This document shows positions 1 through 63,758 of a stretch of DNA of 64,000 nucleotides, in pieces; within the stretch, counting starts at the first letter, position 1, and each line of letters begins with the position of its first letter. Both the position numbers and the translations under genes were made by a program. This stretch comes from Patescibacteria group bacterium UBA3466 (GTDB lineage: Bacteria; Patescibacteriota; Minisyncoccia; Phycocordibacterales; UBA918): assembly GCA_002378195.1 (NCBI GenBank), contig DFRJ01000001.1, positions 29,517 to 93,516 of the forward strand. Direction: 5' to 3'. Under the pieces are notes generated by a model. It had not been told where the DNA came from, ran no database searches, and saw only the letters and a program-made list of their open reading frames with translations.

Positions 1-79
1 GTTGCGAGCACTAAGTACCTGTCGTCTCGGCTCGCGGTTCGTTGCGGCGGGTCAAAGCCGCGCCTCACATTGCTCCGCC
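1..79 (-). repeat. Mosaic intergenic element, copy E, downstream of fusA
   Basis: The reverse complement of 1-79 reads ggcggagcaatgtgaggcgcggctttgacccgccgcaacgaacc...caggtacttagtgctcgc. About 49 of the first 56 positions match copy D at 43081, and the tail matches copy A at 51131 (gtacttagtgctcgc). The copy is cut by the window edge. Confidence 0.6.
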
Positions 80-20919: not shown

Positions 20920-20994
20920 CTAACGAAAAAATATCGGGATATCATCGGCCGGTTTGTCTGGCGCCACAGGCGCCTTAGGCAAACCGGCCATTTC
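20920..20994. repeat. 75-bp perfect direct repeat, copy 1
   Basis: ctaacgaaaaaatatcgggatatcatcggccggtttgtctggcgccacaggcgccttaggcaaaccggccatttc is identical to 22406-22480 and contains a nested 10-bp hairpin (ggccggtttg...caaaccggcc). Confidence 0.9.
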
Positions 20995-21019
20995 TGTCTC
21001 TACTTAATAGTGCGGCAAA

Positions 21020-22405: not shown

Positions 22406-22480
22406 CTAACGAAAAAATATCGGGATATCATCGGCCGGTTTGTCTGGCGCCACAGGCGCCTTAGGCAAACCGGCCATTTC
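22406..22480. repeat. 75-bp perfect direct repeat, copy 2, which also encodes the comEC C-terminus
   Basis: It is identical to 20920-20994. On the minus strand it encodes EMAGLPKAPVAPDKPADDIPIFFR plus the stop codon of comEC. Confidence 0.9.
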
Positions 22481-23965
22481 CTTTTCCTCTTCAACTACCC
22501 AACCGTTGCCGTTTTTTCGATAATTTGCATAAGCTATAAGCATCACCATCAATAAATACATGAACGGCACTAAATAGGCTGGAAAACTTGGTACACTCAC
22601 GGCAGCAAAAGGCAAAGATGCAAAGCGCTCAGCGACTACCAAAATGTAGTTGAGGCTCAAATCAGCCAGATAAGCGATCGGTTGCGCTAACGTAATAGAA
22701 ATTAACCCCACTACTCCTGTCAGAAACGTTAGTAGCATAGCAACCGGCACTACCGGCAACACTAAAACATTAACGACAATCGCTACTAGCGACACTTCCC
22801 CAATATGGTAAAGCAAAAGTGGTAAAACAGCGATCTGAGTAGTGAGAGTGGCCACCAAAAACTCCGAGATTTTAATTTTCTTAGCACTCAAGAGAGCTGT
22901 TTCAAAATATGGTGACAAAATAATCAAGCCTAATGTCGCCATAAATGATAGCTGAAAACCAATGTCATACAAAAGTAAATACGGATTGATAGCAATCATT
23001 ACTAAACCAGCAAAAATTAGCGCTCGCATCACATTGTATTCACGTCCAAACGACTGGGCAAACAACACCAACGAAGCCATGATGCTGGCGCGCACCACGG
23101 TAGCTGATAAACCAACAATCAAGGCAAAAGAAACAATTGCTACCAATCCAGCCACAAAGCGCCAGCGTAGTGGTAGAAAGAATGAGAAAATAAATAGAAT
23201 AAAAGCTACTACCAGCATTACGTTGTAGCCAGACAAAACCACAATGTGAATGATGCCAGTTTTTCGAAAATCTTCCTCAATATCATCTCCCAAAGAAGAC
23301 TGCACTCCCAACAAAAGTCCGTTGCCCAGTGCCACTTCCGGCTCCGGAATAGTCTGTTTTACCGAATTGATAAAAGCGTGCTTGGCGGCCAAAAGCATGC
23401 CCACAAACCAATTACCACCACCTGAATCAAGCACCGACACCTCCGCAAAAGATAGGCGATACTCCACACCGCGAGCTTTGAGATAATTTTCATAATCAAA
23501 AGTACGGCCTAGATCAGTGGTAAACGAAGTTGGTTTATCTAAGCGCCCGGTTATCTGCACCCGATCTCCATAAGACAAATCTGTTAAACGATCGGCACTC
23601 ACCAACACTCGATCATCAGAAGTTGTTACATAAAACTGCACCTGATTAGCTCGGTAATCCGGCTCTTCATCAATTACTCCGATCAATTCGATCGAGCTGC
23701 CGACAGACTCTTCCAGGTTAGACTTACCAAATTGCCAAGTCGCTAGCTCCGTTCGAAAAATCCCCAACGCGAGCGCTAGCATGATTACACTGAGTCCCAA
23801 AACCGGCTGACACAGAGTCTGACAAGAACGCTTTCGCCACCATAAAGCCAAAGCCAGACTAAGCACCATCAGCCAGACCACGTACTCAGACGAAATATTA
23901 AATATAGTACGAGCGGCAATTCCACCAGTAAAAGAAATCGCTATGACTTCAAATAAATAGCGCAT
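22406..23965 (-). CDS. comEC: ComEC/Rec2 competence channel protein without the MBL domain
   Basis: It has multiple transmembrane helices and the conserved competence-domain block IIHIVVLSGYNVMLV...RASIMASLVLFAQSFGREYN...FQLSFMATLG. Confidence 0.85.
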   Translation of the reverse strand: MRYLFEVIAISFTGGIAARTIFNISSEYVVWLMVLSLALALWWRKRSCQTLCQPVLGLSVIMLALALGIFRTELATWQFGKSNLEESVGSSIELIGVIDEEPDYRANQVQFYVTTSDDRVLVSADRLTDLSYGDRVQITGRLDKPTSFTTDLGRTFDYENYLKARGVEYRLSFAEVSVLDSGGGNWFVGMLLAAKHAFINSVKQTIPEPEVALGNGLLLGVQSSLGDDIEEDFRKTGIIHIVVLSGYNVMLVVAFILFIFSFFLPLRWRFVAGLVAIVSFALIVGLSATVVRASIMASLVLFAQSFGREYNVMRALIFAGLVMIAINPYLLLYDIGFQLSFMATLGLIILSPYFETALLSAKKIKISEFLVATLTTQIAVLPLLLYHIGEVSLVAIVVNVLVLPVVPVAMLLTFLTGVVGLISITLAQPIAYLADLSLNYILVVAERFASLPFAAVSVPSFPAYLVPFMYLLMVMLIAYANYRKNGNGWVVEEEKEMAGLPKAPVAPDKPADDIPIFFR

Positions 23966-30063: not shown

Positions 30064-30345
30064 ACTTGAGAATTGTAGCACGCAAAAAAATCTCCTTTCG
30101 GAGATTTAACTGCAATATAAACGTGCCCAAAGCTGCATACTGAGTCCCGCATATCGTCTCGTAAGCATCGACGATTCCTCGCTCGCGCTCGGAGGAGGTA
30201 AATCGTGACCAGGTAATTCTGTGATGGAAAGTACCTACTCTGCAAACGTGCCTAAAGATTAGTTTTTGTCCCACTTATTTCCTCATAAATATCGGAAATT
30301 TCTGACTCTCGTCAGAATCAGGTAGAAAGCTAAGCAGTTTGCTTT

Positions 30346-31761
30346 CTACCCATCCTGACGCCAGTCATCAAACATATAGACATCTGATGTTTCAGGCGTC
30401 ATCGGTGGTGGATTATCTACTTGGTCTTGATCAAACGAAGTAATTCGATTAGCAAATCCGGAACTATAGGATCCACAATAGGAACCGGTCCACTTTGTAC
30501 CAACTCGTCCGTTTGAAATCACACTACCAAATCTGGTAAGTGAATTGCGGCAGACGTATGCGTCCAACCACCATGGTAGACGACTGGTCCAATAGTGATT
30601 GCGACCAAAGCGACCATTTTGCGCTACAAACAAACCGTTAGCCGTCATGTTGTTTGGCACCTCCAGACCGACATCAATATCATCTTCTGCGATTGCTAAA
30701 AGACCAGCTGGAGCACCGGCTGCGTAGGTTATATCGTCATGCAACACAATATTAGTCTCTGATCCGGAGGAGAGATTAGCAGCGGCCAAAGTGACTTTTT
30801 GGGTTATCTCACCTTCGAGCCAAACCTTGTCTTCAATATAAATTAGTGGGCAATTAGGGTCTATCGCTTCAGTCGCCACAAATGATTCGCCAGTAATGAC
30901 ATTCCGCTCGCCCCAATGCCAACCTTGTGAAGTACTATAAGCGCGATAGTTATAAGTGCTGGTCACCTCTCTGATTGTGATCGTTCCGTCGCCATTAAAA
31001 ATTACTCGATAACCCCAACCACTTGATGGGCCATAGTAAATACCGCCGTCATTCTCAGCATGATCTTTTATCTCGCTCAAATCCAGGGTGATGCCAGCAA
31101 AATCAACTGGTGAAACTGGGAAAGAAAATAATCCTGGAGTGGCATTTCCACTTGTCGTAAATACACCATCGACGGTCGGATTCCCCGCACATCCAAACGA
31201 GCTGGTGCAAGTCCAATCTGACTGCCCGCTGCCCACAAAAGAATTATGTGATCCGTCCATTCTAATTCCCTGATTGGAATGTACCGGACCAGTAATTACA
31301 CGGTCTGACCCATACCACACGCCACCGTTAGTGATAAATGAATACTCGGCCACTGTCGGCAAACTATAACGTGCACTCACGGTACTAACCGCCGATGGAT
31401 CTTGGTAAGTAAAACCAGATGATGTCACTTCGATCGAAGCTGTACTGCCGCAATAAGTATTGCGACTAATCGTCAAAGTGTACTCGCCAATATCTCCGTC
31501 CTCGGGGTCTGTATATACGCTACTGGTACTTACAGTTGCATCATCAGGAAAATGAGCTAAATACCAACGGTAGAAATTTAGACCAGCTTCAGCAATCTCA
31601 GTGGCTTTTTGTTGCTCTTCACGGAAATTAACTACTTGGTTTTGCGTAATGATATAGCTAGTGAAAGAGGCCAAAATAACTAAGAAGACGCTACCGAACA
31701 CCAAAACCAAAACCAGCAGGTAGCCGGACGATTTTGTAGTTTGTTGGTGTGATTGGAACAT
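30346..31761 (-). CDS. Hypothetical protein with an N-terminal transmembrane helix, probably pilus-associated
   Basis: It has one N-terminal transmembrane helix, is Gly/Ser/Thr-rich, and is the last gene of the pilus cluster. Confidence 0.45.
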   Translation of the reverse strand: MFQSHQQTTKSSGYLLVLVLVFGSVFLVILASFTSYIITQNQVVNFREEQQKATEIAEAGLNFYRWYLAHFPDDATVSTSSVYTDPEDGDIGEYTLTISRNTYCGSTASIEVTSSGFTYQDPSAVSTVSARYSLPTVAEYSFITNGGVWYGSDRVITGPVHSNQGIRMDGSHNSFVGSGQSDWTCTSSFGCAGNPTVDGVFTTSGNATPGLFSFPVSPVDFAGITLDLSEIKDHAENDGGIYYGPSSGWGYRVIFNGDGTITIREVTSTYNYRAYSTSQGWHWGERNVITGESFVATEAIDPNCPLIYIEDKVWLEGEITQKVTLAAANLSSGSETNIVLHDDITYAAGAPAGLLAIAEDDIDVGLEVPNNMTANGLFVAQNGRFGRNHYWTSRLPWWLDAYVCRNSLTRFGSVISNGRVGTKWTGSYCGSYSSGFANRITSFDQDQVDNPPPMTPETSDVYMFDDWRQDG

Positions 31762-40757: not shown

Positions 40758-40865
40758 GGCCGGGGGTCAAGTTTCTAATTCGCTTACGCTCATAAGAACT
40801 TCCTCCCCGGACTCGCCTTTTTCTGCTCTAGGAATGAGCAGAAAATATGGCTCCGTCTCAAAAAG
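40758..40865 (-). repeat. Mosaic intergenic element, copy C
   Basis: The reverse complement reads ...gagacggagccatattttctgctcattcctagagcagaaaaaggcgagtccggggaggaagttctta tgagcgtaagcgaattagaaacttgaccc. It shares the ggagccata/hairpin/ggcgag module with A and B and the ccggggaggaagttctta...gaaacttgaccc module with D. Confidence 0.7.
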
Positions 40866-40990
40866 CTAGAAAACCTGCAGCAGTGCAGGTTTTCTTTTAC
40901 GCTTTTAGCGAAGGCGCCGGCTTTTTTAAATAACACAATTACTGTGTAACGGTTGCATTTTCTTCGATCTTCCGTACACTAGCGGGCACT

Positions 40991-43064: not shown

Positions 43065-43080
43065 ATCTTATCTACGATCA

Positions 43081-43204
43081 GGCGGAGCGATGTGAGGAGC
43101 GGCTTTAGCCCGCCGTGACGAACCAGCGAGCCCGGGGAGGAAGTTCTTACTAGAATTGGAGCGTAGCGAACAATTATAGTTAGAAACTTGACCCTCGTAG
43201 ATAA
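43081..43204 (+). repeat. Mosaic intergenic element, copy D
   Basis: ggcggagcgatgtgaggagcggctttagcccgccgtgacgaaccagcgagcccggggaggaagttctta...gaaacttgaccc. The first half matches E and the second half matches C. Confidence 0.7.
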
Positions 43205-44871: not shown

Positions 44872-44919
44872 AAAGGCCGGAGGAGCAAAGCTCCTCCGGC
44901 CTTTAGCCTAAACATGCTA
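44872..44919. repeat. 48-nt repeat (terminator hairpin plus tail), copy 1
   Basis: aaaggccggaggagcaaagctcctccggcctttagcctaaacatgcta is identical to 46545-46592. It lies between convergent genes, and its last 3 nt give the TAG stop of the minus-strand gene. Confidence 0.85.
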
Positions 44920-45588
44920 CCCCCGTAAACGTGCCCGCACCATCAAGTATGACGGATACGTGTCACCGTTAATCTCTTCGCAGCCATCTGACAATCCTTC
45001 TTCTAGAGAGATCAGATCAAAATTTTGAAGAAAAAAAGGATTAAAGAAATCTACAAATGTATGACTTGGCTCCGCCACCGTAACTTTTCCATCGAATAAA
45101 ACTGAGTGCACAACCTCCTGTTTAAAGTAATTCTTACCAACTCTTTTCTTCTCGACGAACTGCCGAATCGGATGAACCCAAAGAAAGACTATTTCTGCGG
45201 CAGGATTCAGATGCTGCACCAACCTGAGAAGGAATGAATGGTAGGAGTATACATTTTGGATTGCCCATTTACTTACGACCAAATCAAAACTTTCTTTGGC
45301 AGGAAGGCCGTTGAGCGTTTCCATATCTGAAACATACAAATTGTCGGCTACTGCTTTTGTCTTCGCAACACTAATCATATCAGGCGAAATATCAAGGCCA
45401 ACAATTCTAGATGCTCCCCTAGATTGATACTCGATAAATTCATCACCTGGACCGCATCCCAAATCAAGCAACTTCTTACCAACCAATGAATCGGGTATCG
45501 ATCTCAGGAATGAACGAGTGCAATGCTGCTTGTACCCATCAAATAAATTCCATCCGAAAGATAGCTCGCCATCATATTGGTTTTTCAT
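44917..45588 (-). CDS. Class I SAM-dependent methyltransferase
   Basis: LLDLGCGPGDEF is motif I. The start was moved to the Met with a GGAG RBS (MKNQYDG). Confidence 0.75.
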   Translation of the reverse strand: MKNQYDGELSFGWNLFDGYKQHCTRSFLRSIPDSLVGKKLLDLGCGPGDEFIEYQSRGASRIVGLDISPDMISVAKTKAVADNLYVSDMETLNGLPAKESFDLVVSKWAIQNVYSYHSFLLRLVQHLNPAAEIVFLWVHPIRQFVEKKRVGKNYFKQEVVHSVLFDGKVTVAEPSHTFVDFFNPFFLQNFDLISLEEGLSDGCEEINGDTYPSYLMVRARLRG

Positions 45589-46544: not shown

Positions 46545-46592
46545 AAAGGCCGGAGGAGCAAAGCTCCTCCGGCCTTTAGCCTAAACATGCTA
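46545..46592. repeat. 48-nt repeat, copy 2
   Basis: Identical to 44872-44919, and again it supplies the stop codon of the minus-strand gene at 46590. Confidence 0.85.
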
Positions 46593-47153
46593 GGCGTGTT
46601 TTTGTGCTCGCATCTCAGGTCGCAAAGCAGGATCGGTTTTACTATCCCAGCCTTGGATCTCAAAGAGCCAAGTCATGATCGGTTCATGATCATCGGCTTC
46701 ACTAAAAACACAAAAGTAGGCATTTATAAAGCCGGCATCTTCATAACGAAGCGTAACGTCAAGCTTAAAGCCTTCCCGGAAGGCAACAGCAACTGTGCTG
46801 GTCAACCAAAGATCAAGCTTAGCGGCATTGCCTTCAGCTATCATCTCAGCTAGTGTCGGCAAGGATATCAGCGTACATTCAGGAAGATGAGAAGAGTTCA
46901 GGAGAACATGCTCCAATCCATCATGACCACGCTCGGTTAGGATCATCTGATATTCCCGCTCGGTAGATTTCGAACCAGCAAACAAATTTGCTTCGATCTG
47001 AAACCACGGCTCGCCACGATCATGTGCTGACACGAAATGCAGCTCAATAAAAATTGAATCAGCCAGCATTTCTAGTCGGTCAAGGTTAATGGAGGAACCT
47101 TCGATCACGAAAGTATTCTCCAATTCCGGCTTCTTGAAAGGAACTACTACCAT
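46590..47153 (-). CDS. Hypothetical protein
   Basis: The start was set at MVVVPF, which has the RBS ggagagaaga. Confidence 0.45.
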   Translation of the reverse strand: MVVVPFKKPELENTFVIEGSSINLDRLEMLADSIFIELHFVSAHDRGEPWFQIEANLFAGSKSTEREYQMILTERGHDGLEHVLLNSSHLPECTLISLPTLAEMIAEGNAAKLDLWLTSTVAVAFREGFKLDVTLRYEDAGFINAYFCVFSEADDHEPIMTWLFEIQGWDSKTDPALRPEMRAQKHA

Positions 47154-48494: not shown

Positions 48495-48565
48495 GCGGGT
48501 GTAGTTTAGTGGTAAAACGACTGCCTTCCAAGCAGTAGTCGGGAGTTCGATTCTTCTCACCCGCA
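48495..48565 (+). tRNA. tRNA-Gly (anticodon TCC)
   Basis: It folds as a cloverleaf by hand: acceptor gcgggtg/cacccgc, D-arm gttt/aaac, anticodon stem actgc/gcagt with loop cttccaa, and T-loop ttcgatt. A terminator follows at 48576-48605. Confidence 0.85.
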
Positions 48566-48615
48566 CAGCCAACATGAAAAGCCGTCCCGAAGGGGACGGC
48601 TTTTCTGTTGCTGCT

Positions 48616-48783
48616 GTGCGGAGTGGAGAAAGTGCCTTGAGGCACTTTCGTGAGGAATCGAACGCCGGAATGATGTGAGGAAGTATGACGAACGAATGAG
48701 GCGTGTCCCGCGGCACCTGCTAATTTATGAGGTACGAAATAAATTAGGTTGGTGACCGTCAGGACGATTCTTCCTCTCACCCT
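48616..48783 (+). repeat. Mosaic element copy F plus a degenerate tRNA-Gly 3'-end fragment
   Basis: gtgcggag...hairpin gaaagtgcc/ggcactttc...gatgtgaggaag...gacgaac...ggtgacc shares modules with D, E, A and B. It ends in ggtgacc-gtcaggac-gattcttcctctcaccc, which resembles the tRNA-Gly(TCC) 3' end gattcttctcacccgc. Confidence 0.5.
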
Positions 48784-48806: not shown

Positions 48807-49340
48807 ATGCAAAACAAACCACCAATGGAAACTGATTCACCAGAGGAACTGTTGGATTTGGTCGACGAAAATGACAACGTCATTGGCACAAAAAGCAGGA
48901 AGGAAATTTACGCTGAAGGTTTACGTAACTACAGAGTCGTTAACGCCTTTATAGTTAATTCTGAAGGGAAATTATGGATACCGAGAAGAGTTACTGCAAA
49001 GAAACTATTTCCAAACGGACTAGACTACAGTATAGCTGGTCATGTTGAGTCTGGAGAATCATACGAAGAAGGAATGAAGAAAGAAGCAATTGAAGAAGTG
49101 AATATTGATTTGAATGTTATCCCTTTTAAGGAAGTAGCTACTTTTACTCCTCACACTCACAACGTCCACTGTTTTCAGAAAGTGTATGTAATTGAATCTA
49201 ATGAAGCTCCAGATTACAACAGAGATGATTTTTCTGGTTACGAGTGGCTTTCTCCGGAAGAAATAATCAAAAGATATGAAGAGGGTGAGTATGGCAAGGA
49301 AGATATTCCTGAGGTGGTTAAGCTCTGCTTTCTCCAATAA
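48807..49340 (+). CDS. Nudix hydrolase
   Basis: GHVESGESYEEGMKKEAIEEVNI matches the Nudix box G-x5-E-x7-(K/R)E-x2-EE-x-(G/N)-U. TATACT lies 8 nt before the ATG, so the mRNA may be leaderless. Confidence 0.8.
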   Translation: MQNKPPMETDSPEELLDLVDENDNVIGTKSRKEIYAEGLRNYRVVNAFIVNSEGKLWIPRRVTAKKLFPNGLDYSIAGHVESGESYEEGMKKEAIEEVNIDLNVIPFKEVATFTPHTHNVHCFQKVYVIESNEAPDYNRDDFSGYEWLSPEEIIKRYEEGEYGKEDIPEVVKLCFLQ

Positions 49341-49370
49341 AAGTTCGAACATCGTTGAATAACCTGCACA
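49341..49370 (+). repeat. 30-nt direct repeat R1 (aagttcgaacatcgttgaataaccYgcaca)
   Basis: It begins immediately after the Nudix stop codon, and a unique hairpin terminator (aagcgccc-tgtt-gggcgctt) follows. Confidence 0.85.
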
Positions 49371-49398
49371 CATGATTTAAGCGCCCTGTTGGGCGCTT

Positions 49399-49878: not shown

Positions 49879-49901
49879 ACACCAACTATATCATTTCAAT
49901 A

Positions 49902-49931
49902 AAGTTCGAACATCGTTGAATAACCCGCACA
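49902..49931 (+). repeat. 30-nt direct repeat R2
   Basis: aagttcgaacatcgttgaataacccgcaca is followed by the hairpin agcccct-attt-aggggtttt. It lies about 150 nt upstream of the second Nudix gene. Confidence 0.85.
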
Positions 49932-50075
49932 GATACAATGAGCCCCTATTTAGGGGTTTTATTGTTGGAGGGATGGTTGAAATATTGGCAACTATCGAAC
50001 TTTGTAGTAATTTACTTAGATACAGAGCCGGAGACAAAGCGTACTTGGCACCTATTAAAAGCATAAAATATATTT

Positions 50076-50498
50076 ATGAAAGAAATACCTAATTGTTTTT
50101 ATCGTGTCAGTATTAAGGCACTAGTCTTGAATGAGACGAAAGACAAGTTTCTTCTATGCAAAGAAGAAGATGGGCGTTGGGAGCTACCTGGAGGAGGACT
50201 AGAATGGGGAATGTCACCACAAGAAGACTTGCCTAGAGAACTGATGGAAGAAATGGGTCTCAAGGCAACATCAATAGCTGAAAACCCCTGCTACTTCATA
50301 ACTGGTCAAAGTACCAATTATCCAGAAGTTAAAATTGCAAACGTATTGTATGAAACTAAGCTTGAACACCTAGACTTCACTCCATCTGATGAATGCATAG
50401 AAATACGATTTGTGAACAAAGATGATGTAGAAGGGATGGAACTTTTTGATGGACCTAAAAAACTATTGAGCATATTTAATCCTGATAATCACCAATAA
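50076..50498 (+). CDS. Nudix hydrolase
   Basis: GGGLEWGMSPQEDLPRELMEEMGL contains a Nudix box (RELMEEMGL). The protein is 140 aa. Confidence 0.8.
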   Translation: MKEIPNCFYRVSIKALVLNETKDKFLLCKEEDGRWELPGGGLEWGMSPQEDLPRELMEEMGLKATSIAENPCYFITGQSTNYPEVKIANVLYETKLEHLDFTPSDECIEIRFVNKDDVEGMELFDGPKKLLSIFNPDNHQ

Positions 50499-50528
50499 AA
50501 GTTCGAACATCGTTGAATAACCCGCACA
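50499..50528 (+). repeat. 30-nt direct repeat R3
   Basis: It starts right after the Nudix stop (..caataa|aagttcgaac..), the same junction as R1. The hairpin aatgagcc-tattctgca-aggctcatttttt follows. Confidence 0.85.
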
Positions 50529-50597
50529 AAGAAAATGAGCCTATTCTGCAAGGCTCATTTTTTGTATACGTAATTGAAAAAGTGACCACTCTCGAAC

Positions 50598-50894: not shown

Positions 50895-50958
50895 CTGAAG
50901 AACTCCTGTAGGAACAAAAACGGACTTACACCTTACACTCTTATAAATTATTTTGCAA

Positions 50959-50988
50959 AACCGTTCGAACATCGTTGAATAACCCGCA
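50959..50988 (+). repeat. 30-nt direct repeat R4
   Basis: ccgttcgaacatcgttgaataacccgcaca is followed by the hairpin aaaagaccgttt-tttaa-gaaacggtctttt. Confidence 0.85.
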
Positions 50989-51065
50989 CAAAAGTGTAAA
51001 GAAAAGACCGTTTTTTAAGAAACGGTCTTTTCTTTAGTAAGCAAACTGCTTTGCTTGCGTGCGCT

Positions 51066-51246
51066 TTTGTGAAGCGGAGCCATAATTTTCTCCCCTCCCT
51101 AGGGAGAAAATGGGCGAGCTGGGGCAGCAGGTACTTAGTGCTCGCAGCTAGCATAGCTTGCGAGAATACTTAGTAACCTGCGCCAGACAATAGTTAGATA
51201 AATTGCAAATATTTATGTGAAGGTGACCGATTCTTCTCACTCGCAT
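51066..51246 (+). repeat. Mosaic element copy A ending in a tRNA-Gly(TCC) 3'-end-like fragment
   Basis: gaagcggagccataattttctcccctccctagggagaaaatgggcgagctggggcagcaggtacttagtgctcgc... is about 90% identical to copy B over 70 nt, with compensatory changes in the hairpin. It ends ggtgacc-gattcttctcactcgca, and cgattcttctcac(t/c)cgca matches the tRNA-Gly(TCC) 3' end at 18 of 19 positions. Confidence 0.7.
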
Positions 51247-51642: not shown

Positions 51643-51667
51643 GTTTCCTAAAAAGTTCGAACATCGT
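51643..51667 (+). repeat. 30-nt direct repeat R5 (truncated variant)
   Basis: aagttcgaacatcgttgaataaccc is followed by tccaaaa rather than gcaca. Confidence 0.8.
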
Positions 51668-51676
51668 TGAATAACC

Positions 51677-51716
51677 CTCCAAAAATTTTGTTACGTAGCA
51701 TGTTACGTAACATGCT
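51677..51716. promoter_or_regulatory. Perfect 38-40-bp palindrome upstream of the CYTH gene
   Basis: ttgttacgtagcatgttac|gtaacatgctacgtaacaa has 19-bp perfect arms with no spacer. A TATAAT at about 51745 follows, and the CYTH ATG is at 51826. Confidence 0.6.
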
Positions 51717-51825
51717 ACGTAACAAAGCACACCTGATTTGCCTGTCTGATAGATAGCAGTATAATCAGATTATCTCTGAGTCGGCGATAACGCATCGTGG
51801 CAAAGTTACCAAATAAATATTTTTT

Positions 51826-62428: not shown

Positions 62429-62499
62429 CGGGGTGTAGCATAATGGTAGTGTACACGGTTTGGGACCGTGCGGCCCGGGTTCGATTCCCGGCTCCCCGA
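62429..62499 (+). tRNA. tRNA-Pro (anticodon TGG)
   Basis: The hand fold gives acceptor cggggtg/ctccccg with one mismatch at 6:67, D-arm gcat/gtgt with two G-U pairs, anticodon stem cacgg/ccgtg with loop tttggga, and T-arm ccggg-ttcgatt-cccgg. A terminator hairpin follows at 62508-62540. Confidence 0.75.
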
Positions 62500-62624
62500 C
62501 AGCGAGTAAAATGGTCAGACTGTAGTCTGGCCATTTTACTTCTGTGGCCGGGATCGAAAAGGTTAGTCAGGTACTTTTGCGAATGCTTGGAGCAAAATAT
62601 CGACAACCTGCACTGAACCTGTAA

Positions 62625-62648
62625 GGTTCGATTCCCGGCTCCCCGACA
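62625..62648 (+). repeat. 24-nt duplicate of the tRNA-Pro 3' end (att-like scar)
   Basis: ggttcgattcccggctccccgaca is identical to 62478-62501, and the preceding T-stem strand is absent, so this copy is not a tRNA. Confidence 0.85.
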
Positions 62649-62749
62649 AAGAATTGAATAATCGGACCGTAGGTCTGATTATTTTTATTTTATGACCGCG
62701 ATCGAAGTGGCTAGTCGGACATCGTACATAAGAGGTTTACTGACTGAAT

Positions 62750-62765
62750 TGTTTCACGTGAAACG
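62750..62765. promoter_or_regulatory. parS-like site 1
   Basis: tgtttcacgtgaaacg matches the ParB-binding consensus tGTTtCACGTGAAACa at 15 of 16 positions. Confidence 0.7.
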
Positions 62766-62818: not shown

Positions 62819-63268
62819 CTAACCTAGCACAATATTCCTCATATACTTAGCAGTAGCATACTTTTCACGTGGAACTATTCTAACTGCAATAACATCCACT
62901 TCCCACTCCCCATCATAGTCATTCTCCATAATCCAACTTTCAATTGCCCTATTCAGCCGCCTGATCTTAGAATAATGTACATTTTCCTCTGGCCGCCAGG
63001 TTCCACGTGAAATAGCCTCATCAAGTTCCCTCTTTGTTTCATATGAAACAGTTTTTACCTCAACAAACCTAATAATAGCGCTATTTTTAGTAGTTTCACG
63101 TGCAACAATGTCTATTTCTCCCCATTTTTTAAGGTAATTTACCTGCAATACTGCAAAACCCTTCCTTTTTAGGTAATTTGTGGCAATTTCCTCCCCAAGA
63201 GCGCCAATTTTATTCTTTTCTCCTTGTTTATCGCTTTGTTTCATGTGTAACAGATCAAAATGTTTCAC
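62819..63268 (-). CDS. yraN: YraN-family (UPF0102) endonuclease
   Basis: GEEIATNYLKRKGFAVLQVNY...GEIDIVARE...IRFVEVKT matches the YraN/UPF0102 pattern. Confidence 0.75.
   Translation of the reverse strand: MKHFDLLHMKQSDKQGEKNKIGALGEEIATNYLKRKGFAVLQVNYLKKWGEIDIVARETTKNSAIIRFVEVKTVSYETKRELDEAISRGTWRPEENVHYSKIRRLNRAIESWIMENDYDGEWEVDVIAVRIVPREKYATAKYMRNIVLG
62861..62876. promoter_or_regulatory. parS-like site 2 (weak)
   Basis: cttttcacgtggaact matches at 12 of 16 positions and lies inside the yraN coding sequence, where it encodes PREK. Confidence 0.4.
62999..63014. promoter_or_regulatory. parS-like site 3
   Basis: ggttccacgtgaaata matches at 13-14 of 16 positions, the TGTTCCAC variant known from Bacillus. 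It lies inside yraN, where it encodes ISRGT. Confidence 0.55.
63092..63107. promoter_or_regulatory. parS-like site 4
   Basis: agtttcacgtgcaaca matches at 14 of 16 positions and lies inside yraN, where it encodes VARET. Confidence 0.55.
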
Positions 63269-63275
63269 GTGAAAC
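63260..63275. promoter_or_regulatory. parS-like site 5
   Basis: tgtttcacgtgaaacg matches at 15 of 16 positions, is identical to site 1, and lies at the yraN start. Confidence 0.7.
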
Positions 63276-63346: not shown

Positions 63347-63414
63347 TTTGGATAATAGATCTGTGGATTGTCCCTTATCCACCTATCCACACAGTTTTCC
63401 CCAGTTATCCACAG
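63347..63414. promoter_or_regulatory. DnaA-box cluster (candidate oriC or DnaA-regulated region)
   Basis: The boxes are tgtggattg (63363, reverse complement of caatccaca), ttatccacc (63376), ctatccaca (63384) and the perfect ttatccaca (63406), plus tttggataa (63347). An AT-rich stretch lies just upstream (63281-63345). Confidence 0.6.
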
Positions 63415-63496
63415 CTAAATTGATCAAACCACACAGCCATGATTACAAATGTCTGCGGCCTAACCCCCGTGGGCTATGAGATGATCCCCAGGGAGG

Positions 63497-63609
63497 GTGG
63501 CTGCAGGGAATCGGTCACCTATTCAGCCTAGTCTTAAGTACTTGGTGCCCCAGCTCGCCTATTTTCTCCCTTATGAGGGGGAGAAAATTATGGCTCCGCT
63601 TCACAAATA
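63497..63609 (-). repeat. Mosaic element copy B, flanked by a tRNA-Gly(GCC) 3'-end duplicate
   Basis: The reverse complement gaagcggagccataattttctccccctcataagggagaaaataggcgagctggggcaccaagtactta...ggtgacc|gattccctgcagcc matches A. Its terminal gctgcagggaatcg matches the tRNA-Gly(GCC) 3' end gctacagggaatcg at 13 of 14 positions. Confidence 0.7.
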
Positions 63610-63687
63610 GTGTACGCAAGCCAAGCAGTTGGCTTGCTATAAACAAAATCACCTGATTACTCAGGTGATTTTGCTTATACACTTTTG

Positions 63688-63758
63688 TGCGGCTACAGGG
63701 AATCGAACCCTGATCTTATCGTTGGCAACGATACGTTCTACCACTAAACTATAGCCGC
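63688..63758 (-). tRNA. tRNA-Gly (anticodon GCC)
   Basis: The minus-strand hand fold gives acceptor gcggcta/tagccgc, D-arm gttt/gaac, anticodon stem tatcg/cgata with loop ttgccaa, and T-arm caggg-ttcgatt-ccctg. A palindromic terminator lies at 63646-63675. Confidence 0.85.

What the first reader, a model, noticed from the sequence alone, without database searches (positions are those of the whole stretch)
51066..51246. Mosaic family of miniature elements (at least seven copies) with a compensatory-mutation hairpin, some bracketed by tRNA 3'-end duplications
Copies lie at 1-79 (E), 40758-40865 (C), 43081-43204 (D), 48616-48757 (F), 51066-51246 (A) and 63497-63609 (B), and possibly in the 120-bp tRNA-Pro insert. 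They share interchangeable modules: gcggagcc(a/g)at; a hairpin TTTTCT-(ccc/gctc)-loop-(ggg/gagc)-AGAAAA whose stem is kept by compensatory changes in A, B and C; ggcgag(c/t)(t/c)(g/c)ggg; gtacttagtgctcgc in A and E; ccggggaggaagttctta...gaaacttgaccc in C and D; and a terminal GGTGACC. In A, B and F the GGTGACC end abuts a partial copy of the adjacent tRNA-Gly 3' end. For B this is gctgcagggaatcg against the tRNA-Gly(GCC) sequence gctacagggaatcg, about 170 nt from the intact tRNA. For A it matches the tRNA-Gly(TCC) 3' end at 18 of 19 positions. That pattern fits an attL/attR duplication made by integration into the tRNA 3' end, with the element, or the arm of a larger integrative element, reduced to 110-180 bp. 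All copies are intergenic and lie at gene 3' ends beside terminators. Conservation of the stem-loop through compensatory changes argues for a functional RNA or protein-binding structure, not neutral decay. No integrase or recombinase gene is present in the window, so the elements are either non-autonomous (MITE-like, mobilised in trans) or fossil ends.
Basis: seen in the sequence. Interest (0 to 1): 0.8.

Follow-up and report, generated by a model that had tools for sequence, protein, structure and literature searches.

The report
Structured repeat cassettes behind tRNA genes
The repeats are real members of a family found across Patescibacteria (tiny candidate-phyla-radiation bacteria): 100-250-base folded cassettes that sit just behind tRNA and tmRNA genes, carry a direct and an inverted copy of that gene's last ~20 bases, and match no catalogued RNA or mobile-element family.

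Summary
All six listed copies (A-F) and the tRNA-Pro insert belong to one modular family. The window comes from a marine Patescibacteria chromosome.

A pattern scan of 185,579 species genomes found the full architecture only in Patescibacteria. About 70% of independent copies lie 50-290 nt downstream of a tRNA or tmRNA gene, always on the same strand.

A complete cassette has these parts in order:
- X', an inverted copy of the gene's 3' end;
- the M1 hairpin;
- M2 paired with M4, capped by the TTTTCT hairpin (M3);
- the long hairpin M5;
- X, a direct copy of the 3' end that starts in the T-loop;
- a terminator.

GGTGACC is not an att motif. It is the strand that pairs with GAAGCGGAGCC.

Covariation is strong: 94.9% of cells are paired, with 86 double changes against 25±4 in shuffles. 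Rfam, phage and plasmid searches found nothing. The window has no recombinase.

Copies are missing at orthologous sites in relatives, stack in tandem, and are homogenised within genomes. Their X tails mark synteny breaks and serve as secondary attachment sites for a serine-recombinase island.

Best reading (0.45): non-autonomous integrative cassettes that recombine with tRNA 3' ends and act in a folded single-stranded form. Main rival (0.3): resident non-coding RNA genes.

The parts
1..79 (-). Copy E, cut by the window start. It has a D/E-type 5' module (GGCGGAGCAATGTGAGG...) and the start of an A-type M5 hairpin. It lies in the 3' region of fusA, co-oriented with that gene.
   Evidence: The full copy was read in L074 12190-12320.
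30325..30346 (-). An isolated M1-type hairpin (GAAAGCAAACTGCTTAGCTTTC) at the 3' end of a gene, without the rest of the cassette.
40762..40894 (-). Copy C: an M1-like hairpin (40869-40894), the M2-M3-M4 domain (40805-40859) and a C/D-type M5 hairpin (40762-40808). It is inserted into or next to the terminator between the 138-aa gene and tig.
   Evidence: The orthologous spacers in L053 and L054 hold only a simple terminator.
43070..43202 (+). Copy D: a D/E-type 5' module (43081-43137) and a C/D-type M5, closed by the 8-bp inverted repeat ATCTACGA/TCGTAGAT. It lies between the clpP stop codon and its terminator.
   Evidence: It is absent from the clpP-rny spacer of L053, L054 and L055. Independent assemblies break at or inside it.
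48495..48566 (+). tRNA-Gly(TCC). Its 3' end is the sequence copied in F and A.
48567..48614 (+). The trailer and terminator hairpin that precede F. They are conserved together with F in L053.
48615..48782 (+). Copy F: X' in two parts (48615-48629 and 48648-48663) split by the M1 hairpin (48630-48647); a D/E-type core; GGTGACC plus a degenerate tRNA-Gly(TCC) 3'-end tail (48751-48782).
   Evidence: The unit is 94.6% identical to L053, where coding genes are 70-78% identical. It is also present in L054 with a covarying M1 and a perfect tail.
50952..51035 (+). D2 repeat number 4 (a pseudo tRNA 3' end, GTTCGAACATCGTTGAATAACCCGCACA) plus a terminator. It occupies the place that a tRNA 3' end holds upstream of other copies.
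51036..51245 (+). Copy A, the finding itself: M1 51036-51059; M2 51069-51083; M3 hairpin 51086-51110; M4 51112-51125; M5 51126-51184; a variable stretch; GGTGACC plus the tRNA-Gly(TCC) tail 51222-51245.
   Evidence: The orthologous copy in L053 is 80% identical.
62429..62500 (+). tRNA-Pro(TGG).
62543..62651 (+). A minimal cassette: X' (62543-62562), an M5-like hairpin (62563-62613) and a perfect copy of the tRNA-Pro 3' end (62625-62651). It is followed by a second terminator and a degenerate second unit starting at 62692.
   Evidence: (repeat D12).
63499..63638 (-). Copy B: M1 63615-63638; M2-M4 63547-63604; a shortened M5; GGTGACC plus the tRNA-Gly(GCC) tail 63499-63519.
63687..63758 (-). tRNA-Gly(GCC). 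It lies 48 nt upstream of B on the same strand, with a terminator hairpin in between.

Best explanation
Each copy is a small, gene-less cassette. It consists of X' (an inverted copy of the last ~20 nt of a tRNA or tmRNA gene, usually split by the M1 hairpin), a modular core, X (a direct copy of the same ~20 nt that begins in the T-loop at position 55/56), and a terminator. The core is M2 paired with M4 and capped by the TTTTCT hairpin M3, followed by the long hairpin M5. X' pairs with X, so the cassette folds into a closed multi-helix structure. I propose that these are non-autonomous integrative cassettes. The cassette's X recombines with the identical 3' end of the tRNA gene, using a recombinase supplied in trans. 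This restores the tRNA and leaves a partial-tRNA copy distally. Repeated entries stack cassettes and larger islands in tandem, and the X tails become further entry points. Selection acts on the folded single-stranded form. That form is most likely a transcript read through from the upstream tRNA or highly expressed gene; alternatively it is single-stranded DNA serving as the recombination substrate. Shown here: the architecture, the covariation, the tRNA/tmRNA linkage, stacking, gain and loss at orthologous sites, homogenisation within genomes, and use of the tails as att sites. Inferred: the recombination step, the identity of the enzyme, and that the element is transcribed.
For: (1) The full architecture was found only in Patescibacteria, in 21 genome-scan loci and 14 metagenome loci. 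(2) About 22 of 31 independent copies lie 48-290 nt downstream of a tRNA or tmRNA, always co-oriented with it. About 0.4 would be expected by chance; that expectation is my own estimate from roughly 45 tRNA genes per ~1-Mb genome, not a tool result. (3) Tails are exact copies of the neighbouring gene's end: 19 nt in L043 and L048, 18 nt in L035, 20 nt in L063. The junction is always at T-loop position 55/56. (4) Among tRNAs not chosen through the pattern, 7 of 28 have a direct copy (at least 12/14) and 4 of 28 an inverted copy of their own 3' end downstream. None have one upstream. (5) Tandem stacks occur in L049, L063, L065 and L045. In L063 the proximal tail is perfect and the distal one degenerate, the same pattern as serial integration in tycheposons (10.1101/2020.12.28.424599). 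(6) C and D are absent at orthologous sites in relatives. F is absent in L055 and present in L053 and L054. (7) The F unit is 94.6% identical between genomes whose genes are 70-78% identical. A and B (paralogues) are 87.6% identical, but B and its orthologue in L019 are only 72%. (8) Synteny breaks directly after the F and A tails. The serine-recombinase island sits at the tRNA end in L053 and at the F tail in L054. (9) Covariation: 94.9% of cells paired, and 86 double-change cells against 25±4 in shuffles (0 of 500 shuffles reach this).
Against: No recombinase lies in or beside any small cassette. No circular or excised form, and no population polymorphism, was seen: all TARA contigs are identical. 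One core family sits next to more than 12 different tRNA identities, which a sequence-specific integrase does not easily explain. X' has no role in classical att recombination. About 30% of copies (C, D, E, L009, L020, L030, L058, L062) have no tRNA nearby. The F and A units are conserved at least as well as coding genes, which equally suggests a resident function. The strand test by folding energy was uninformative once base composition was controlled. No matches were found in phage, plasmid or viral collections.
Confidence: 0.45

Rival explanations
1. These are resident non-coding RNA genes, not mobile elements. Each would be a structured RNA transcribed with, or just after, a tRNA or other highly expressed gene. 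Its closing helix, derived from a duplicated tRNA 3' end, would act as a processing or stability stalk, cut by RNase III or by tRNA-processing enzymes. Copies would multiply by local duplication and gene conversion.
For: Multi-helix covariation is strong and the minimum-free-energy folds are clean. Every tRNA-linked copy is co-oriented with the upstream gene. D and E lie inside the 3' untranslated regions of clpP and fusA. F and A are kept at syntenic positions at 80-95% identity between genera. In L024, X' (GGGCGGT) matches the tail (ACCGCCC) rather than the adjacent tRNA, a compensatory change in the closing helix. Wobble cells number about 30 G-U against about 9 A-C on the tRNA strand.
Against: No promoter is evident between the terminator and X', and a terminator separates most copies from the tRNA. 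The closing helix covers the discriminator base and the T-loop, so it is not a normal RNase P or RNase Z substrate. Gain and loss at orthologous sites, tandem stacks and genome-specific homogenisation look like mobility. A pure RNA gene gives no reason for synteny to break at the tails.
Confidence: 0.3
2. The copies are attL/attR scars plus the decayed arm sequences of ordinary integrase-encoded islands. The modules are leftover binding sites for an integrase and its accessory proteins.
For: There are direct repeats of tRNA 3' ends that start in the T-loop, which is typical of tRNA-targeting integrases (from my own knowledge of Williams 2002). tmRNA genes are also targeted (65 of the L012/L065/L066 data). 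A frameshifted large serine recombinase lies next to tRNA-Gly in L053.
Against: The same unit, of the same size, recurs across distant genomes and next to many different tRNAs. Helices covary, which protein-binding arms do not need. X' is unexplained. The only recombinase island seen uses a different right end (D2-like) and crosses over at GCA|CA, not at the T-loop junction.
Confidence: 0.1
3. These are generic 3'-end structural repeats, similar to REP/BIME elements or terminators, that stabilise or terminate transcripts. The tRNA link would be a by-product of strong transcription.
For: All copies are intergenic, at gene 3' ends, beside A-tract/hairpin/T-tract terminators. M4-M5 in C doubles as the terminator stem of the upstream gene. 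M1 doubles as the tRNA terminator in L046 and L051. An isolated M1 hairpin lies at 30325-30346.
Against: The modules are not common to intergenic regions: the window has 3 pattern matches and 0 in shuffles. The many plain terminators in the window lack them. Precise direct and inverted copies of the neighbouring tRNA end are not a property of terminators.
Confidence: 0.1

Closest known systems
Partial-tRNA att repeats and stacked integrative elements (tycheposons; cis-mobilisable elements, CIMEs, of streptococcal ICEs)
   Same: They sit at the 3' end of tRNA genes and are bracketed by a partial tRNA copy. Newer entries push older ones outward. Integrase-less units lie between att copies (10.1101/2020.12.28.424599; CIMEs from my own knowledge).
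   Different: These cassettes are 100-250 bp with no genes. They carry an inverted copy of the att sequence and a conserved, covarying folded core. They occur at many different tRNAs within one genome.
Bacterial mosaic intergenic repeats (BIME/REP in E. coli, BOX in pneumococcus, Correia/NEMIS in Neisseria)
   Same: They are multi-copy, modular, hairpin-forming, intergenic, located at gene 3' ends, and can act as terminators or stabilisers (own knowledge).
   Different: Those families have fixed ends and no tRNA linkage. Here the ends change with the locus and copy the neighbouring tRNA. REP units are 20-40 nt.
Integron attC sites (for example Vibrio VCR repeats)
   Same: They are imperfect palindromes recognised by fold rather than by sequence. 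They act as single strands and delimit arrays of small cassettes (own knowledge).
   Different: There are no R''/R' GTTRRRY boxes and no IntI. The partner site would be a tRNA end rather than attI.
E. coli tyrT-rtT repeats
   Same: Tandem units downstream of a tRNA gene, each containing a copy of the tRNA's 3' end (own knowledge, not checked here).
   Different: That is a single locus in one lineage, with no conserved folded core and no inverted copy.
Retron msr-msd RNA
   Same: Terminal inverted repeats close a 150-250-nt RNA made of short hairpins plus one long hairpin (own knowledge).
   Different: No reverse transcriptase gene is adjacent. There are many copies per genome. The closing repeats are tRNA-derived.

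Membership tests
MITE | Terminal inverted repeats that are conserved among copies | tested here: not met
   The ends (X'/X) differ from locus to locus and copy the local tRNA or tmRNA.
MITE | A short target-site duplication of fixed length | tested here: not met
   No short duplication flanks C or D. Instead, 18-65 nt of the tRNA end, sometimes with its terminator, is duplicated.
MITE | Small, without an ORF, and multi-copy | tested here: met
   There are 7-8 copies of 100-210 nt in 64 kb. The reverse-strand mini-ORF MAPLHK is not conserved.
tRNA-targeting integrative element (att sites / CIME) | A direct repeat of the tRNA 3' end brackets the element | tested here: met
tRNA-targeting integrative element (att sites / CIME) | An integrase encoded inside the element or nearby | tested here: not met
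   The window has no recombinase Pfam hit. Only L053 has one, a frameshifted serine recombinase tied to a different end sequence.
tRNA-targeting integrative element (att sites / CIME) | Excision, a circular form, or presence/absence between strains | tested here: inconclusive
   Presence and absence differ between genera. All conspecific contigs are identical.
Integron attC | R''/R' core sites (RYYYAAC ... GTTRRRY) and an IntI integrase | tested here: not met
   No such boxes are at the element ends. No integrase is in the window.
REP/BIME | A 20-40-nt palindromic unit with a conserved head, in mosaic combinations | tested here: not met
   The units are 100-250 nt with five modules. Only the mosaic character is shared.
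Any Rfam 15 family | A covariance-model match | tested here: not met
   There was no hit on any copy at the gathering threshold or at E<=1.
Retron ncRNA | An adjacent reverse transcriptase gene | tested here: not met
   No reverse transcriptase lies near any copy.
TIGR guide arrays (known in candidate-phyla-radiation bacteria) | Alternating 8-12-nt repeats with 9-nt spacers next to a Nop-domain Tas protein | tested here: not met
   The architecture is unrelated (PMC12045711).
Large-serine-recombinase att sites (applies to the D2 repeats only) | The P half-site resembles the B half-site, but with the outer motif about 5 bp further from the crossover | tested here: met
   The tRNA has GTTCGA-N15-CA and D2 has GTTCGA-N20-CA. 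The recombinase island in L053 ends in a D2-like site. The 5-bp rule itself is from my own knowledge.

The most novel reading that the evidence does not exclude
The cassette is a self-targeting mobile RNA or single-stranded DNA. Its two ends, X' and X, are complementary to the two strands of a tRNA gene's 3' end. They would act as built-in guides that home the cassette to that gene through a structure-recognising recombinase supplied in trans. This would be a programmable, guide-bearing mini-element, comparable in logic to IS110 bridge RNAs or integron attC sites.
Probability: 0.1. Interest if true: 0.9.

Novelty: new variant of a known kind. Interest (0 to 1): 0.7.

Why it matters
Patescibacteria have tiny genomes with little spare DNA. 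Even so, many of their tRNA and tmRNA genes are followed by a conserved folded cassette that no database describes.

If the cassettes are mobile, they show how islands are captured and stacked at tRNA genes in these episymbionts. In that case att sites multiply by riding on a structured carrier.

If they are RNAs, they form a new and abundant non-coding RNA class tied to tRNA expression.

Either way, the covariance-supported fold and the clear sequence pattern make the question testable with existing metatranscriptomes and complete genomes.

Tried and rejected
- **Rfam.** Searches at the gathering threshold and at E<=1 gave nothing on the copies; the only hits were terminator look-alikes.
- **Viral, phage and plasmid collections.** One chance hit and otherwise no matches.
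- **Group I tRNA introns of Patescibacteria** (PMC13011429). These insert in the anticodon loop, so they are not relevant.
- **TIGR arrays.** The architecture is unrelated.
- **Small ORF on the reverse strand** (ATGGCTCCG..., MAPLHK). It stops after 6 aa in B and L009, and the Shine-Dalgarno-like sequence is lost in GCTC-type hairpins. Rejected.
- **Strand assignment by folding energy.** The tRNA strand is more stable in 27 of 32 copies. Composition-matched shuffles give an equal or larger bias, so this is not evidence.
- **Palindromic fold-back origin of X' around the terminator.** The apparent extension of symmetry beyond the tRNA end is only the A- and T-tracts of bidirectional terminators.
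- **Does X' follow the tail or the tRNA where the two differ?** Mixed result: the tail in L024, the tRNA in L056 and L015.
- **Population polymorphism at F.** None was found.
- **Homology of genes to the right of the tails in L054 and the window.** None was found.
- **HMM of M2-M4.** It finds only TTTTCT-type copies and misses the D/E/F types.
- **Literature searches.** No description of the family was found.

Full report
**Source and setting**

The window is part of a 108.7-kb marine (TARA) contig of a Patescibacteria bacterium. Independent assemblies are 100% identical to it. Its genes are ordinary chromosomal ones: fusA, tig, clpP, rny, hup, a DUF5667 protein and type IV pilus ATPases. No integrase, resolvase or transposase domain is present.

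**The observation**

- A-B 87.6% over 105 nt;
- A-C 75% over 77 nt;
- D-E 86.5% over 52 nt;
- C-D 73% over 73 nt;
- A-E 85% over 33 nt.

The hairpin-anchored pattern CGGAGCCAT-N1-2-TTTTCT-N6-24-AGAAAA matches A, B and C, and never matches in shuffles. The tRNA-end copies next to A, B, F and in the tRNA-Pro insert are real.

**Distribution**

The same pattern was scanned over one genome from each of 185,579 species and gave 43 loci. Every locus that also carries the following modules (GGCGAG..., the long hairpin, GTGAC) is a Patescibacteria genome. These include Paceibacteria, Nomura-, Kaiser- and Yonathbacteria, Parcubacteria and one Saccharibacteria bin. The non-Patescibacteria hits are chance matches inside coding sequence. 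A stricter pattern found 14 more real copies in metagenomes. This is therefore a widely distributed family within Patescibacteria, not a strain-specific one.

**Position**

- ARAGORN places about 22 of 31 independent copies 48-290 nt downstream of a tRNA or tmRNA gene, always on the same strand, usually after a bidirectional terminator.
- The genes include Gly-TCC, Gly-GCC, Val-TAC, Val-GAC, Arg-GCG, Arg-CCT, Tyr, Lys-TTT, Lys-CTT, Glu-TTC, Glu-CTC, Ile, Leu and tmRNA.
- With roughly 45 tRNA genes per ~1-Mb genome, about 0.4 such placements would be expected by chance. This figure is my own estimate, not a tool result.
- Among 28 tRNA/tmRNA genes that were not selected through the pattern, 7 have a direct copy (at least 12/14) of their own 3' end within 450 nt downstream, and 4 have an inverted copy within 200 nt. 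None has either upstream.
- All three tRNA genes in the window are followed by a member.

**Anatomy**

A complete cassette reads, 5' to 3':
- X', the reverse complement of the tRNA's last ~20 nt. It is usually split into an acceptor part and a T-arm part by the M1 hairpin. M1 has the form NNNNGCAAA-tetraloop-TTTGCNNNN.
- M2, (G)AAGCGGAGCCAT.
- M3, the TTTTCT...AGAAAA hairpin.
- M4, GGCGAGCYGGGG.
- M5, a long hairpin of either the GTACTTAGT...ACTTAGTAAC type or the GGAAGTTCTTA...AGAAACTTGACCC type, often with a GAGCGTAGCGAA apex.
- ...GTGAC(C).
- X, a direct copy of the tRNA end starting at T-loop position 55/56 (GTGAC|CGATTC, GGGA|CGAGCC, GGGC|CAAGTCC).
- A terminator.

Folding compact copies (L043, L024) gives a closed structure. 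X' pairs with X, M1 branches off, M2 pairs with M4 beneath M3, and M5 forms the last arm. The energies are -78 and -84 kcal/mol for about 168 nt.

In A-type copies GAAGCGGAGCC pairs with GGTGACCGATTC.

Minimal members have only X'-hairpin-X: the tRNA-Pro insert, L011 (Ser) and L027 (Leu). In L027 the duplicated segment also includes the trailer and terminator. D, E and F replace M2-M3 with a GGCGGAGCRATGTGAGG... module. C, D and E lack a tRNA tail, and D is closed by an unrelated 8-bp inverted repeat.

**Covariation**

The test used an alignment of 30 distinct copies covering M1 and the M2-M3-M4 domain.
- 13 of 21 predicted pairs show compensatory double changes.
- 94.9% of cells are paired, against 81% in shuffles.
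- There are 86 double-change cells against 25±4 in shuffles; 0 of 500 shuffles reach that number.
- Structures slid by 1-3 columns pair in at most 51% of cells.
- The 3-bp helix under M3 occurs as AGC/GCT, GGC/GCC, GAC/GTC and GCC/GGC.

The element is therefore selected to fold as a single strand. Which strand, and whether as RNA or DNA, is not settled. The folding-energy asymmetry is explained by base composition. Wobble counts (about 30 G-U against about 9 A-C) mildly favour the tRNA strand.

**Dynamics**

Relatives were fetched through RNase Y homologues with 81-86% amino-acid identity.
- C is absent from the orthologous spacer in L053 and L054, which hold a plain terminator. In the window the two halves of that terminator flank the insert.
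- D is absent in all three relatives.
- F is absent in L055 and present in L053 and L054.
- The F unit, with its trailer and terminator, is 94.6% identical between the window and L053, although coding genes are only 70-78% identical. A is 80% identical.
- Paralogues A and B (87.6%) are closer to each other than B is to its orthologue in L019 (72%). M3 variants are genome-specific.
- Tandem stacks occur in L049, L063, L065 and L045. In L063 the proximal tail is perfect and the distal one decayed.
- Independent assemblies break at or inside D.
- Conspecific contigs show no polymorphism.

**The tails as junctions**

Synteny between the window, L053 and L054 ends exactly after the F and A tails.

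In L053 a 5.4-kb island lies between tRNA-Gly and F. It carries a frameshifted large serine recombinase and ends in GTTCGAGCAAAGGTCAGTATTTCTGCA|CA. In L054 a roughly 190-bp remnant with the same ends lies after the F tail instead. The X copies therefore serve as secondary attachment sites.

The window's five D2 repeats (GTTCGAACATCGTTGAATAACCCGCA|CA) are the same kind of island end. D2 number 2, together with its flank, equals the tRNA-Gly flank of L055.

**Interpretation**

The data best fit small non-autonomous integrative cassettes that recombine with tRNA/tmRNA 3' ends and are selected in a folded single-stranded form (0.45). A resident structured RNA family is the main rival (0.3). Decayed arms of ordinary islands (0.1) and generic terminator-like repeats (0.1) fit poorly.

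Three things remain unexplained: the role of X', how one core family serves so many different tRNAs, and the missing enzyme.

**Novelty**

There was no match in Rfam 15, in the phage, plasmid or viral collections, or in the searchable literature. The components have precedents (partial-tRNA att repeats, mosaic intergenic repeats, folded recombination sites). I found no description of the combination.

Noticed in passing
window 49332-49373, 49893-49934, 50490-50531, 50952-50993, 51644-51685: There are five same-orientation copies of GTTCGAACATCGTTGAATAACCCGCACA (D2), each followed by a hairpin. They separate single small genes (two NUDIX genes and unknowns) of alternating orientation. D2 resembles the tRNA-Gly(TCC) 3' end, but with 5 extra bases between GTTCGA and GCA|CA. 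This looks like the island-side half of a serine-recombinase att site and a cassette array.
   Followed up: partly
L053 13970-19392 (= L018 94-5516): An island next to tRNA-Gly(TCC) carries a large serine recombinase split into three ORFs (Resolvase, Recombinase, Zn_ribbon_recom), HTH genes and fragments of a type I restriction-modification system. It contains internal inverted repeats of 131 bp (97.7%) flanking the recombinase and of 570 bp (99.8%) flanking a 2.6-kb segment, so it may be invertible.
   Followed up: partly
L054 13690-13860: A roughly 190-bp miniature of the L053 island, with its left and right ends only, sits after the F tail rather than after the tRNA.
   Followed up: partly
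window 51690-51723; L074 12322-12358: The perfect palindrome GTTACGTAGCATGTTACGTAACATGCTACGTAAC occurs after D2 number 5 and again just after copy E. It is another small repeat family.
   Followed up: no
window 62751-62764, 63262-63275, 63370-63420: The UPF0102 gene (62819-63268) is flanked by two copies of the palindrome GTTTCACGTGAAAC. Next to it lies a cluster of DnaA-box-like sequences (one exact TTATCCACA plus variants) between it and copy B. This may be an origin or a regulatory region.
   Followed up: no
window 20920-21005 and 22406-22491; 44872-44939 and 46545-46612: There are two pairs of long direct repeats (86 nt at 94%; 68 nt at 87%) that include terminator hairpins and flank 1.4-1.6-kb gene blocks. 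One metagenome contig (L005) joins 44919 directly to 46545, which suggests a deletion variant or an assembly collapse.
   Followed up: no
window 43082 and 43175 (ends of contigs L008 and L003): Independent assemblies end at the start of copy D or inside it. This is expected if near-identical copies exist elsewhere in the genome.
   Followed up: no
L074 12163-13105, 14825-15532, 19761-20343: The spacers inside the fusA-tuf-rpsJ-rplC ribosomal gene region of this small genome are unusually long (580-940 nt). Only the first was inspected; it holds E, the palindrome and a terminator.
   Followed up: no
M5 apex, e.g. window 40779-40791 and 43162-43175: The apical motif GAGCGTA(A/G)GCGAA is conserved across distant genomes. 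It contains TAGCG, which recalls the CS-6 loop of plasmid single-strand origins. That resemblance is from memory only and was not tested.
   Followed up: no
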